A stretch of 64,000 bases of DNA from assembly GCF_056712565.1 (NCBI RefSeq), contig NZ_CM160072.1; one strand, given 5' to 3'. Positions within the stretch are counted from its first letter, which is position 1, and the number at the start of each line of letters is the position of its first letter. The position numbers were made by a program. Positions 44,768-47,692 of the stretch are shown piece by piece.

Positions 44768-47692
44768 TTAACCAATTCTGTGTTGCACACAGTTATCTGT
44801 GAGAAACCCATGGAAGAGAAATGGAAATAAAAAGAACTGACACCGCGATCAAAAAACCAAAAACTGCAATACCCACAGCGTGATATTGATCGCATTAATC
44901 TTTAAAACAGCGTTGACAGAAGCCACAAAATAAGCAATCGAACGTTCGTTCGAACATATTGGGAGCGATAAACCCTCATGATATATTGCTACGATGAATA
45001 TTTAGGTGGGATTCTCCGATCCCTGGGAGGATGATTTTTGCACAGAGAAATTACGATATGAAACGCGGGCTCAGTTGTCACCAGCCCGCGGAAAGAGAGA
45101 GAGGATCAGGATGCGGTTAATATACCGCCAATCATCGCGCGTAATCCCTGAGCAAACGACGCTTCACGCGCCAGATCTTCCGCTTCGATATCGGCCAGTA
45201 CACCGTAGGTCAGATCCAGCAGTAAACGTGAAGTCATTGCCGTGTTGATATCTGGGCTTATCTCGCCTTTTTGCTGGGCATCACGCATCCGCTGGGCAAC
45301 AAATTCCGTGATCGTCATATGCTTATTTTTAAGCATGGCGGCGACCTGTGGGTTACGCATCCCTTCCGCCATAATTTCGACCACCAGCGCTCGTTGCCCA
45401 AAGGCTTCATGGGTGAGAGAGACAATAGACTCGACCATATAGTCAACGAAATGAATCCCTTCAATCGGTTCCCGGAAACGGGCCAGCGCCCTCTCCTGGT
45501 CCTGTAAGATAATCGCCTGAATCAAGGCTTCTTTGGAGATGAAATGGTGATAGAGCGTCCCGGGACTAATGGCGCAGGATTTACAGATGGCTTTCATCGA
45601 GGCACTGTGAAATCCATTTTCTGAAAAAATCTCTCTGGCAGCATTGAGGATCCGGGTCCGTGTCGGTTGTGCTTCAGTCTGCATGTTATCCATCATTAAA
45701 CCATTATAGTTAGCATGAATAACTAGTTTACCGCGTTGTCAGGTGAGCGCCTATCATTGCTGTTGAATAGTGCGAAGGCACACTCAATTCGTAAGCTTTT
45801 TATCCGGCTATTGGTTAACCAATAGCCGTGATTTGGCTGCCAGTTGTTTAGCAGAGACGTTGACGAGTTGCACACGCTATCCCGGTAAACAACACATACG
45901 GCTGTTTACCGGTTCGTTAGTGTATTAATTGAGTTCCTGTACCCCACCACCGGAGACGGTGAGAATTTGTCCGCTTACCCAGCTGGCTGCAGGCGAGCAA
46001 AGGAACAGCGCCGCGTTAGCAATATCTTGCGGTTGGCCCAGACGTCTGATTGGTGTGTGTTGCAACATTTTCTGTTCAATCTCTGGTGTAATAACGGATT
46101 TCAGGGCATCGGTTAATATTGCCCCCGGTGCAATGCCATTCACCCGAATATTTTTTTCACCCAGGTCAAACGCCATATTTCTGACCAGATGACTGGCCGC
46201 AGCTTTAGATGATGCATAGGAGGTCATGTTTATATTTTTATTTTCTGCCGCCATAGAAGTAATGGTCAGAATAACGCCACCGCCATTTTTTTCCATTTCT
46301 GGCGCAACAAGTTGTGACAGATGGAAAAAAGAAAATACATTCAGTTCATAAGCGCGGCGAAAATCTGCCATTGGCATATCAAACGGTTTAGGCCCACCGC
46401 CACCGGCGTTGTTAACCAGGATATCAACTTTACCCAACTTACTGACGGCAAAGTCTGCCAGTGCAGAGAGTTCCTGTTCGGAAGTAATATCGCAGCGGCA
46501 GGCAAATGCCTGACCACCCAGTTGTTGAATTTCATTTACAACATGATTAGCTGCATCGGCGTTAATATCACTGACCACCACAGATGCGCCAGCTGTCGCG
46601 AATGTAATGGCGATTTCTTTACCAATACCTGCACCCGCACCTGTAATGATGGCGCATTTTCCGTCGAGTCTCAGGTTGTCAGAATTAAACACATAAACCT
46701 CCTGTGAACTTCAGTAAAAATAAAAGGCACCGCCTGTGTGCCACATTTTTTATCATTAACCTTGAGGAAAGGACACTACCAGGTATAGCAGATAAAGAGA
46801 GGATTATTTCTCCGCAATGAGCCGGGCAGGAATAATAAGATTGCTAGAATGCGTCTCTTCATGGGTGATTTTTTGCATCATGCGATCCGCAAGTGTGGTA
46901 CCAAGTTCCCGCGCTGGCGTGCTGGCCCAGGTAACGGGTATATCATCAAGTGTGGTTGGCGTTGCATCGGTAAATGCCGCCAGCGAAACCTGTTGCTCAA
47001 AGTAACGATCGACTCCGCTTTCCCCGCTTTGCCTTCCTGCTTTCAGCAAACCAAACCATGCCCCCATCGCAATAGTTTCGTTATAGCAAACCACGGCGCT
47101 GATGGTCGGGTTATGACGTAAAAGCGCCGTGATAGCTTCCGCGGCTTGCTTCTGGCTGGAAGTGCACTCCAGCACCCAATCGCTGTGAAACGGCAGGCCA
47201 AATTTTAGTAGAGTCGCACAATAGCCCCCCACCCGTTCTGCCCGGGTTAATGAGGAACTTTGTCCTCCCAGCCAGGCGATACGCTGATGCCCATTGCGAA
47301 TGAGATGCTCCGTCAACAACTGTGCAGCCTGCATGTTGTCCGGGCGAACCGTATCAACGTCATCAAGATAACTGGCACGGGAAGCGAAAATCACCGGGAT
47401 AGCTTTTTCTTCTGCTATCCGTCGCAGGTCATCGCTGCTTCCTGCAGCCCCGGCAATGACCACACCATCGACACCCTGATTCAGTAATAGTGAAAACCGC
47501 TGTGCCAGCTGCTCGCCGTCTTTACCGCCGTGAAGCAAAAAAACCATCCGTCCCTGCGCTTCCAGAGCTTCCGTCAATCCGGCCGTCAATTCGGCGTAAA
47601 ACGGCGCAGATAAATCACGGACGATCAAACCAATGACGCCGCTTTGCCCGCCGCGCAGCGCCGACGCCTGGCGATTGCGCACAAATCCCAGC

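What the first reader, a model, noticed from the sequence alone, without database searches (positions are those of the whole stretch)
45805..45828. Perfect 24-bp palindrome upstream of uidR
cggctattggttaaccaatagccg is an exact inverted repeat with no loop, which favours a dimeric regulator binding site over a terminator hairpin. It sits upstream of the TetR-family repressor gene uidR. Its TTGGTTAACCAA core resembles the TTGGTATACCAA-type boxes of UxuR/ExuR (recalled, not verified), and a related half-site (ttaaccaat) occurs in the uidA control region at ~44768. It may couple uidR expression to the hexuronate regulon.
Basis: partly seen in the sequence, partly recalled or inferred. Interest (0 to 1): 0.4.

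Follow-up and report, generated by a model that had tools for sequence, protein, structure and literature searches.

The report
UxuR-type operator upstream of uidR
The perfect 24-bp palindrome is real, but the conserved part is a 14-bp UxuR-type repressor box (ATTGGTTAACCAAT) upstream of uidR. The link it implies between the glucuronidase repressor gene and the hexuronate regulon is already in the literature, so the finding is ordinary.

Summary
The window is E. coli ATCC 11775 (phylogroup B2). CGGCTATTGGTTAACCAATAGCCG at 45805-45828 is an exact loopless 24-bp palindrome. It is the longest in the window, occurs once per genome, and lies between the hdhA stop and the uidR start.

The 24-bp perfection is an allele. 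Only 218 of 5426 complete E. coli genomes carry it, and K-12 has only the 14-bp core. That core, ATTGGTTAACCAAT, is invariant in the nine E. coli strains aligned and survives in other Escherichia species. A perfect TTGGTTGACCAA box also sits upstream of gusR in Enterobacter and Cedecea.

The core has the TTGGT-N2-ACCAA form of the boxes in the gntP/uxuA, uxuR and uidA control regions. The literature lists uidR in the UxuR regulon and reports the uid genes, written uidABR, derepressed in a uxuR deletion.

It is not a terminator. There is no U tract, the hairpin is not conserved, and the box persists where hdhA is absent. It does not resemble the conserved TCGAACG-N2-CGTTCGA palindrome, which is the probable UidR operator.

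Verdict: observation confirmed, interpretation supported, already known. Binding at this site and the repression geometry remain unproven. The box overlaps one predicted -35, or lies about 98 bp upstream of a promoter candidate that is conserved across genera.

The parts
45805..45828 (.). Perfect 24-bp palindrome CGGCTATTGGTTAACCAATAGCCG. This is the extended form specific to ATCC 11775 / CFT073 / Nissle-type strains.
   Evidence: The exact allele is in 218 of 5426 E. coli genomes.
45810..45823 (.). Conserved 14-bp core ATTGGTTAACCAAT, a UxuR-type (FadR-subfamily GntR) box with GT-N2-AC spacing. This is the probable functional operator.
   Evidence: Invariant in nine E. coli strains. Core plus distal flank is exact in 4878 of 5426 genomes. 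Retained as ATTGGTTAACCAAT, TTGGTTGACCAAT or CTGGTTGACCAAT in other Escherichia. Top-scoring 14-mer in the window with a PWM built from non-uid UxuR boxes.
45829..45839 (.). Flank distal to uidR (TGATTTGGCTG on the + strand), invariant within E. coli.
45796..45809 (.). Polymorphic patch on the uidR-proximal side of the core. In uidR sense the five bases next to the core read AGCCG, AGCTG, ATCTG, TGCTG, TTCAG or TTCCG. It supplies the outer arm of the palindrome in this strain only.
   Evidence: Alignment. Allele counts are 218, 1130, 878 and 1796.
45813..45818 (-). TTAACC, the -35 hexamer of the uidR promoter predicted in K-12 (TTAACC-17-TATACG). It lies inside the box.
   Evidence: PMC3946193, table read. 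The string is located in K-12.
45790..45795 (-). Position of that prediction's -10 hexamer. It reads CTTACG here and TATACG in K-12, and it varies among strains, so the assignment is weak.
45748..45753 (-). TAGGCG, the candidate -35 of a gusR/uidR promoter conserved across genera.
   Evidence: TAGGCG-N17-TA(A/C)ACT lies 26-34 nt before the ATG in Escherichia, Enterobacter, Cedecea and Salmonella, with unrelated spacers.
45725..45730 (-). TAAACT, the candidate -10 of the same conserved promoter. The implied start is near 45718, which puts the box centre near -98.
   Evidence: The start position is an inference.
45106..45696 (-). uidR (gusR), the TetR-family repressor of uidABC. This is the gene the box is inferred to control.
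44761..44778 (.). UxuR-type box in the uidA control region (TGATTAGTTAACCAATTC). Its centre is 53.5 nt before the uidA ATG and 1047 bp from the uidR box.
44741..44758 (.). Second, weaker box (ATACTGGTCAACCTTTAA), 20 bp from the first.
44938..44953 (.). TCGAACGTTCGTTCGA, a 16-bp palindrome conserved in every gusA control region examined. It is the probable UidR/GusR operator and is listed as the contrast to the 24-mer.
45882..45912 (-). hdhA 3' stem-loop (CCGGTAAACA-N11-TGTTTACCGG), 13 nt after the stop. It is the more plausible hdhA 3' structure.
   Evidence: One compensatory outer pair in E. whittamii and SCPM.

Best explanation
The 14-bp core ATTGGTTAACCAAT (45810-45823) is an operator for the GntR/FadR-family hexuronate repressor UxuR, possibly also bound by ExuR or a UxuR-ExuR heterodimer. 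One repressor dimer would bind the two TTGGT/ACCAA half-sites and lower transcription of uidR. Glucuronate or fructuronate would release it. The gene for the glucuronide-specific repressor would then be co-regulated with uidABC, uxuAB, gntP and uxuR.

Shown here: the motif, its conservation, and its absence of terminator features. Taken from the literature: uidR belongs to the UxuR regulon and is derepressed without uxuR. Inferred: UxuR occupies this particular site.

The geometry is unresolved. One option is steric occlusion of a promoter whose -35 (TTAACC) lies inside the box. The other is action from about -98, for instance by looping to the uidA-side boxes 1047 bp away, on the conserved TAGGCG-17-TAAACT promoter.

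The outer 5 bp of each arm that make the palindrome 24 bp long are a lineage-specific allele reachable by single substitutions. They are not part of the functional unit.
For: 1. Motif. Core TTGGTTAACCAA has 0 mismatches to TTGGT-N2-ACCAA. The same form occurs in K-12 at gntP/uxuA (TTGGTCAACCAT, GTGGTTAACCAA), upstream of uxuR (TTGGTTGACCAG, CTGGTCAATCAA) and upstream of uidA (TTAGTTAACCAA). In about 110 kb scanned (window plus the K-12 loci), 5 of the 7 hits with one mismatch or none fall in about 1.2 kb of uxu/uid intergenic DNA.

2. PWM. A matrix built only from the four uxu-region boxes has its optimum at AAATTGGTTAACCAATTT. The 14-mer core is the best-scoring site in the window at 20.0 bits.

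3. UxuR binding to this motif class. Genomic SELEX places UxuR on the gntP/uxuA spacer (PMC5934670). AAATTGGTATACCAATTT works as a UxuR operator in a biosensor (PMC8092373). UxuR sites have GT-N2-AC spacing (PMC4494728).

4. Conservation within E. coli. The core is invariant in nine diverse strains while the adjacent 5 nt vary. A 30-mer of core plus distal flank is exact in 4878 of 5426 genomes.

5. Conservation beyond E. coli. The box is kept in E. whittamii, Escherichia sp. MOD1-EC7003 and a divergent 'E. coli', with changes only in the centre or at one half-site base, while the outer arms are lost. A perfect TTGGTTGACCAA sits 84-85 nt upstream of gusR in Enterobacter hormaechei and Cedecea colo. 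Boxes also sit next to gusA in all four other genera examined.

6. Regulon membership. PMC10016265 lists uidR as a UxuR target and reports the uid genes (written uidABR) induced on glucuronate and derepressed in a uxuR deletion.

7. Promoter context. RpoD-holoenzyme SELEX places a promoter in the hdhA-uidR spacer, with predicted -35 TTAACC inside the box (PMC3946193).
Against: No binding data exist for this site.

UxuR genomic SELEX in K-12 gave a single strong peak at gntP/uxuA and did not report uidR. It also missed uxuR and uidA, so its sensitivity is limited.

With 18-mer flanks included, this strain's allele scores 13.9 bits. That is rank 4 in the window and equal to the mean maximum of shuffled sequence. 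The K-12 allele scores 19.2.

The box is absent upstream of gusR in Salmonella and Yersinia.

Relative to the cross-genus conserved promoter candidate, the box centre is near -98 (Escherichia) or -60 (Enterobacter, Cedecea). Neither is a classical occlusion position.

The alternative promoter that overlaps the box has a poor, non-conserved -10. The consensus scan finds no sigma-70-like promoter in the spacer.

Derepression of uidR in a uxuR deletion could be indirect.
Confidence: 0.78

Rival explanations
1. The palindrome is an autoregulatory operator for UidR/GusR itself, the TetR-family dimer encoded just downstream.
For: TetR-family repressors commonly autoregulate through palindromic operators upstream of their own gene (general knowledge). 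A 13/14 copy of the core lies in the uidA control region, which UidR controls. From memory, unverified: older genetics reported interchangeability of the uxu and uid repressors (title cited).
Against: The same motif occurs at gntP/uxuA and uxuR, which are UxuR targets with no gus genes nearby. A different 16-bp palindrome, TCGAACG-N2-CGTTCGA, is conserved once per locus in every gusA control region examined: E. coli, E. whittamii, Salmonella, Cedecea, Enterobacter and Yersinia. It is the better candidate for the GusR operator. Nothing resembling it lies upstream of uidR; the best match has 5 mismatches. The published O1/O2 sequences could not be retrieved.
Confidence: 0.07
2. It is an RNA hairpin at the 3' end of the hdhA transcript, acting as a terminator or stabiliser, and has no DNA-binding role.
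For: It lies 96 nt downstream of the hdhA stop on the same strand. In this strain the transcript would fold into a strong hairpin: -18.9 kcal/mol, z = -5.9.
Against: The hairpin is followed by GAUAAAAAGC, not a U tract, and no minus-strand terminator is detected. In the K-12 allele the fold is -7.5 kcal/mol, z = -0.67, no better than shuffles. So stem stability is not conserved while the 14-bp DNA core is. The box persists in Escherichia sp. MOD1-EC7003, which has no hdhA, and upstream of gusR in Enterobacter and Cedecea, where the neighbour is gusA. A separate hairpin with a compensatory change sits directly after the hdhA stop. There is no Rfam match.
Confidence: 0.03
3. The box is bound by a different FadR-subfamily regulator with ATTGGT half-sites (for example a PdhR-, LldR- or LgoR-like protein), or by ExuR alone, rather than UxuR.
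For: The TKGT/ACMA half-sites are shared across the FadR subfamily (PMC4494728). UxuR and ExuR are reported to bind each other's sites (PMC11806353).
Against: GT-N2-AC spacing is the UxuR type. ExuR, PdhR, LldR and most of the subfamily use N3. Co-occurrence is with gus and uxu genes across genera, not with other pathways. The uxaCA/exuT, uxaB and exuR regions of K-12 hold no match with fewer than 2 mismatches.
Confidence: 0.07
4. It is a chance palindrome without function.
For: About 0.3 perfect 24-bp palindromes are expected per 4.6-Mb genome. The outer 10 bp are demonstrably a neutral-looking polymorphism.
Against: The inner 14 bp are conserved while both flanks diverge, across species and genera. 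They also match a defined regulon motif in the correct functional context.
Confidence: 0.05

Closest known systems
UxuR operators of the E. coli hexuronate regulon (gntP/uxuA, uxuR, uidA control regions). UxuR is a GntR-family, FadR-subfamily repressor.
   Same: Palindromic TTGGT-N2-ACCAA core with a T/C-A/G centre. Location in the control region of a glucuronide/hexuronate gene. Conservation in orthologous regions. Reported derepression of the downstream gene in a uxuR deletion.
   Different: It is a single box rather than a 20-bp tandem pair as at uidA and uxuR. The flanks in this strain are CTA/TAG rather than the A/T-rich AAA/TTT. It lies far upstream (about 120 nt) of the start codon. Binding at this site has not been demonstrated.
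PdhR, LldR and ExuR boxes (FadR subfamily, ATTGGT-N3-ACCAAT type)
   Same: The ATTGGT/ACCAAT half-sites are nearly identical (family-wide TKGT/ACMA; the PdhR consensus is from memory).
   Different: The spacing between GT and AC is 2 nt here and 3 nt there.
TetR-family autoregulatory operators, e.g. tetO and the probable GusR operator TCGAACG-N2-CGTTCGA
   Same: A palindrome upstream of a TetR-family gene.
   Different: There is no sequence similarity to the conserved gus-locus palindrome. The motif also occurs at loci unrelated to UidR.
Rho-independent terminator
   Same: A GC-containing perfect stem in this strain's transcript.
   Different: No U tract, and the stem is not conserved among strains.

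Membership tests
UxuR operator (FadR-subfamily GntR box) | Inverted repeat TTGGT-N2-ACCAA (GT-N2-AC spacing) | tested here: met
   0 mismatches at 45811-45822. ATTGGT-N2-ACCAAT is also perfect. Spacing criterion from PMC4494728.
UxuR operator (FadR-subfamily GntR box) | A/T-rich flanks (AAA...TTT) as in the consensus AAATTGGTATACCAATTT | tested here: inconclusive
   This strain has CTA...TAG and an 18-mer PWM score of 13.9, equal to the shuffled maximum. K-12 has CTA...TTT and scores 19.2; MOD1-EC7003 scores 20.4. The PWM rests on only four sites.
UxuR operator (FadR-subfamily GntR box) | Located in the upstream region of a hexuronate/glucuronide gene and conserved upstream of its orthologues | tested here: met
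   Upstream of uidR in all Escherichia examined, and of gusR in Enterobacter and Cedecea. Absent in Salmonella and Yersinia.
UxuR operator (FadR-subfamily GntR box) | Position compatible with repression (overlapping or downstream of the promoter) | tested here: inconclusive
   It overlaps the -35 of the promoter predicted in PMC3946193, but that -10 is poor and variable. Relative to the conserved TAGGCG-17-TAAACT candidate it is at about -98. No mapped transcription start was available.
UxuR operator (FadR-subfamily GntR box) | Physical binding of UxuR, relieved by fructuronate or glucuronate | not testable with these tools
   Published UxuR genomic SELEX reported only gntP/uxuA. No footprint for this site was found in the held literature.
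UxuR operator (FadR-subfamily GntR box) | Target gene responds to uxuR deletion or to the inducer | not testable with these tools
   Literature only: the uid genes (written uidABR) are up on glucuronate and in a uxuR deletion, and uidR is listed in the regulon (PMC10016265).
Intrinsic (Rho-independent) terminator | Stable stem-loop immediately followed by a U tract on the transcribed strand | tested here: not met
   The tail is GAUAAAAAGC and the scan finds no minus-strand site. The stem is not conserved: K-12 folds at -7.5 kcal/mol, z = -0.67.
UidR/GusR (TetR-family) operator | Similarity to the palindrome conserved in gusA control regions (TCGAACG-N2-CGTTCGA) | tested here: not met
   The best match upstream of uidR has 5 of 14 mismatches. 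The gus-locus palindrome is conserved in six taxa. That it is the GusR operator is itself an inference.
Dispersed repeat (REP/BIME-like palindromic element) | Multiple copies per genome | tested here: not met
   Exactly one place per genome in every search.

The most novel reading that the evidence does not exclude
The allelic series next to the core is functional. The variants run from 14 bp of palindrome in K-12 to a perfect 24 bp in ST73-type uropathogenic and Nissle strains. They would tune UxuR affinity, the -35/spacer of an overlapping uidR promoter, or hairpin or cruciform formation on hdhA read-through. E. coli lineages would then differ heritably in how tightly beta-glucuronidase expression is held by the hexuronate signal. 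A related reading is that the box acts by looping to the uidA-side boxes 1 kb away.
Probability: 0.1. Interest if true: 0.4.

Novelty: already known. Interest (0 to 1): 0.15.

Why it matters
uidR/gusR sets the level of gut-bacterial beta-glucuronidase, an enzyme that reactivates glucuronidated drugs. Placing its gene under UxuR makes the glucuronide-specific repressor responsive to the downstream product glucuronate/fructuronate, a regulatory cascade with feedback. This link is already in the literature. The present work adds only detail. The functional unit is the 14-bp core, the 24-bp perfection is a minority allele, and the box is conserved upstream of gusR in some other Enterobacterales. 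The promoter geometry remains open.

Tried and rejected
1. Template-switch origin of the perfect palindrome. I considered it because K-12 and the window differ at a cluster of bases exactly where the arm is completed. I rejected it as unnecessary: nine strains show a graded series of alleles linked by single substitutions, and each is common.

2. A shared UidR motif between the uidR and uidA upstream regions. Only the box is significantly shared (13/14). The 11/14 matches, such as CTGACAACGCGGT, are at the number expected by chance.

3. Rfam search of 44600-46100: nothing.

4. The sigma-70 consensus scan finds no promoter in the spacer, in either the window or K-12.

5. The primary papers that should list the site or the GusR operators are not held: Suvorova 2011 (PMC3147527), Little 2018 (PMC5777068) and Blanco 1986 (PMC1202694). 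Full-text search for the core sequence returned one unrelated paper. The supplements of PMC4494728 and PMC9881133 did not contain the site or the operator sequences.

6. Box-like matches at 26694-26723 and 48345-48362 lie inside coding sequence (the start of a pntA-like ORF, and malX). I treat them as chance.

7. The 18-mer PWM with flanks was too noisy (four training sites) to separate this strain's allele from background.
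Full report
**Identity of the region.** The window is 100% identical over 1 kb to E. coli ATCC 11775 (NZ_CP033092.2). The same region exists in 5419 of 5426 complete E. coli genomes. All the relevant genes lie on the minus strand: malI 46804-47832, hdhA 45925-46692, uidR 45106-45696 and uidA 42905-44716. These assignments come from the ORFs and the RefSeq annotation of the K-12-like and MG1655 loci.

**The observation.** CGGCTATTGGTTAACCAATAGCCG at 45805-45828 is its own reverse complement. The arms are 12 nt with nothing between them. It is the longest loopless palindrome in the window; the runner-up is 16 bp. 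The i.i.d. expectation is about 0.004 per 64 kb, and 2 of 200 Markov simulations reached 24 bp. It occurs once per genome. It lies 96 nt past the hdhA stop, with its centre 120.5 nt before the uidR ATG. It matches the core at 13 of 14 positions and is the only significant similarity between the uidR and uidA upstream regions.

**What is conserved.** The 24-bp perfection is not. A 30-mer centred on the perfect palindrome is found in only 218 of 5426 genomes, including CFT073, Nissle and clone D i2.
- K-12 has CGGCTATTGGTTAACCAATTTCAG, found in 1796 genomes.
- ST131-type strains have ...AATATCTG, in 878 genomes.
- A third common allele has ...AATAGCTG, in 1130 genomes.

An alignment of nine diverse strains shows that the 14-bp core ATTGGTTAACCAAT and the flank distal to uidR are invariant. 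The five bases on the uidR-proximal side take at least six forms, connected by single substitutions. A 30-mer of core plus distal flank is exact in 4878 genomes.

Outside E. coli, E. whittamii has CTGGTTGACCAAT. A divergent 'E. coli' (SCPM-O-B-8794) has TTGGTTGACCAAT. Escherichia sp. MOD1-EC7003 has ATTGGTTAACCAAT. In all three the outer CGGCTA/TAGCCG arms are gone. The unit under constraint is therefore the 12-14-bp core, with freedom at the central dinucleotide.

**What the core is.** TTGGT-N2-ACCAA is the form of the boxes in K-12 at these positions:
- the gntP/uxuA spacer: TTGGTCAACCAT and GTGGTTAACCAA
- upstream of uxuR: TTGGTTGACCAG and CTGGTCAATCAA
- upstream of uidA: TTAGTTAACCAA, with a weaker CTGGTCAACCTT 20 bp away

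UxuR binds the gntP/uxuA spacer in genomic SELEX (PMC5934670). AAATTGGTATACCAATTT serves as a UxuR operator in a biosensor (PMC8092373). A comparative study of the GntR family states that UxuR sites have 2 nt between GT and AC, whereas ExuR, PdhR, LldR and most FadR-subfamily sites have 3 (PMC4494728).

A matrix built only from the four uxu-region boxes has its optimum at AAATTGGTTAACCAATTT. With that matrix the 14-mer at 45810 is the best site in the window, at 20.0 bits. With the three flanking bases on each side included, this strain's allele scores only 13.9 bits, no better than the best site of a shuffled window. The K-12, ST131 and MOD1-EC7003 alleles score 19.2, 17.3 and 20.4. On this crude four-site matrix, the substitutions that perfect the palindrome move the flank away from the UxuR consensus.

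**Comparative genomics beyond Escherichia.** UidR homologues of 50-66% identity were located in four other genera.
- Enterobacter hormaechei and Cedecea colo: gusR and gusA are divergent. A perfect TTGGTTGACCAA lies 84-85 nt before the gusR ATG, and another box lies next to gusA.
- Salmonella enterica: only the gusA-side box is present.
- Yersinia proxima: three boxes lie before gusA and none before gusR.

The motif therefore travels with gus genes and with uxu genes. That fits the regulator common to both, UxuR, rather than a gus-specific protein.

**Literature on the link.** PMC10016265 lists uidR, with uxuR and exuR, among the regulator genes of the UxuR regulon, citing earlier genetic and comparative-genomic work. 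It also reports that the uid genes (written uidABR) are induced on glucuronate and derepressed in a uxuR deletion. From memory, and unverified here, Blanco and co-workers showed in 1985 that uidR expression is under uxuR control, and the Rodionov/Suvorova comparative studies list a candidate site.

**Rivals.**
- *Terminator.* The minus-strand transcript would form a -18.9 kcal/mol hairpin in this strain. It is followed by GAUAAAAAGC, and no minus-strand terminator-like site is found. The K-12 allele folds no better than shuffles: -7.5 kcal/mol, z = -0.67. The box also persists where hdhA is absent. A separate hairpin at 45882-45912, directly after the hdhA stop, shows a compensatory C-G to T-A change in other Escherichia.
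- *UidR auto-operator.* A different 16-bp palindrome, TCGAACGTTCGTTCGA (44938-44953), is conserved once per locus in the gusA control regions of E. whittamii, Salmonella, Cedecea, Enterobacter and Yersinia, with three mismatches or fewer. It is the likelier GusR operator. Nothing like it lies upstream of uidR. This is an inference, because the published O1/O2 sequences could not be retrieved.
- *Dispersed repeat.* Excluded, with one copy per genome.
- *Rfam.* No match.

**Mechanism and what remains open.** There are two promoter candidates.

RpoD-holoenzyme SELEX placed a promoter in the hdhA-uidR spacer of K-12, and the authors' best hexamers were TTAACC-17-TATACG (PMC3946193). TTAACC is the centre of the box (45818 to 45813 on the minus strand). 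A bound dimer would then occlude the -35, which is classical repression. But the -10 is poor, lacks the terminal T, reads CTTACG in this strain, and varies among strains.

The second candidate lies in the roughly 95 bp immediately upstream of the uidR ATG, which are almost invariant across Escherichia. That block contains TAGGCG-N17-TAAACT. The same hexamers, at the same 17-nt spacing and the same distance from the ATG, recur in Enterobacter, Cedecea and Salmonella with unrelated spacer sequences. That is the signature of a real promoter. Relative to it the box centre is near -98 in Escherichia and near -60 in Enterobacter and Cedecea. Such positions would require an upstream mechanism, such as interference with upstream contacts or looping to the uidA-side boxes 1047 bp away.

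No mapped transcription start was available, and the consensus scan finds no strong sigma-70 site. I assign about 0.78 to 'UxuR-type operator controlling uidR' and leave the geometry undecided.

**Verdict.** The feature is a known kind of site in a known regulon, and the regulatory link is already published. The 24-bp perfection that drew attention is a minority allele of a polymorphic flank. Interest is low.

Noticed in passing
window 45697-45790 (minus strand), with L014-L019: The roughly 95 bp immediately upstream of the uidR ATG are almost invariant across Escherichia species, more so than the box flanks. They contain TAGGCG-N17-TAAACT (-35 at 45753 to 45748, -10 at 45730 to 45725). These hexamers, their spacing and their distance to the ATG recur in Enterobacter, Cedecea and Salmonella with unrelated spacers. 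This is a likely gusR promoter, different from the one predicted in PMC3946193.
   Followed up: partly
window 45703-45708 (minus strand): A perfect TATAAT ends 6 nt before the uidR ATG, and there is no obvious Shine-Dalgarno sequence. This could mean a very short or absent leader. It is specific to Escherichia (TATATT in E. whittamii).
   Followed up: no
window 44938-44953: The 16-bp palindrome TCGAACGTTCGTTCGA in the uidR-uidA spacer is conserved, with 3 mismatches or fewer and once per locus, in the gusA control regions of six taxa. It is always preceded by TTGACA about 17-18 nt away on the strand pointing away from gusA. It is the probable GusR/UidR operator. The orientation of the TTGACA is odd for the co-directional E. 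coli and Yersinia arrangement.
   Followed up: partly
window 44741-44778; L020 4299-4352: UxuR-type boxes upstream of uidA come as a tandem pair 20 bp apart in E. coli, as they do upstream of uxuR in K-12. Yersinia proxima has three at 20-22-bp spacing. This helical phasing suggests cooperative binding.
   Followed up: no
L015 (Escherichia sp. MOD1-EC7003) and L016 ('E. coli' SCPM-O-B-8794): Both lineages have lost uidABC, and L015 has also lost hdhA. Each keeps an intact uidR with its box and promoter block, so the repressor is orphaned. In L015 the uidABC deletion ends at the 44944 palindrome.
   Followed up: partly
window 45796-45809: A cluster of polymorphisms (about ten variable columns in 20 bp among nine strains) lies between the invariant box and the invariant promoter block. 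There are four common alleles across 5426 genomes.
   Followed up: yes
window 45868-45875 versus the K-12 locus L006: An 8-bp indel (GCGTGTGC present in B2 and most strains, absent in K-12 and EF5-18-41) lies between the hdhA hairpin and the box.
   Followed up: no
window 45882-45912 (minus strand): A stem-loop 13 nt after the hdhA stop has a compensatory outer pair (C-G to T-A) in E. whittamii and SCPM but no U tract. It is possibly a 3' stabiliser or a Rho-dependent end.
   Followed up: partly
window 47941-47956 and 47865-47876: The 16-bp perfect palindrome GATAAAACGTTTTATC and a 12-bp TAAAACGTTTTA lie in the malI-malX divergent spacer. From memory, these look like the known MalI operators.
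   Followed up: no
window 26694-26723: Two adjacent box-like matches (ATTGGTTAACCGTT and CTTGGTATGCCAAT) fall in the first codons of a pntA-like ORF ([13 protein letters not shown]...). I judge them to be chance matches in coding sequence.
   Followed up: partly
window 45823-45849 (+ strand): The scan reports a weak terminator-like site on the plus strand (TAGCCGTGATTTGGCTG followed by CCAGTTGTTT) that overlaps the distal arm. It is also present in K-12. No plus-strand gene ends there.
   Followed up: no
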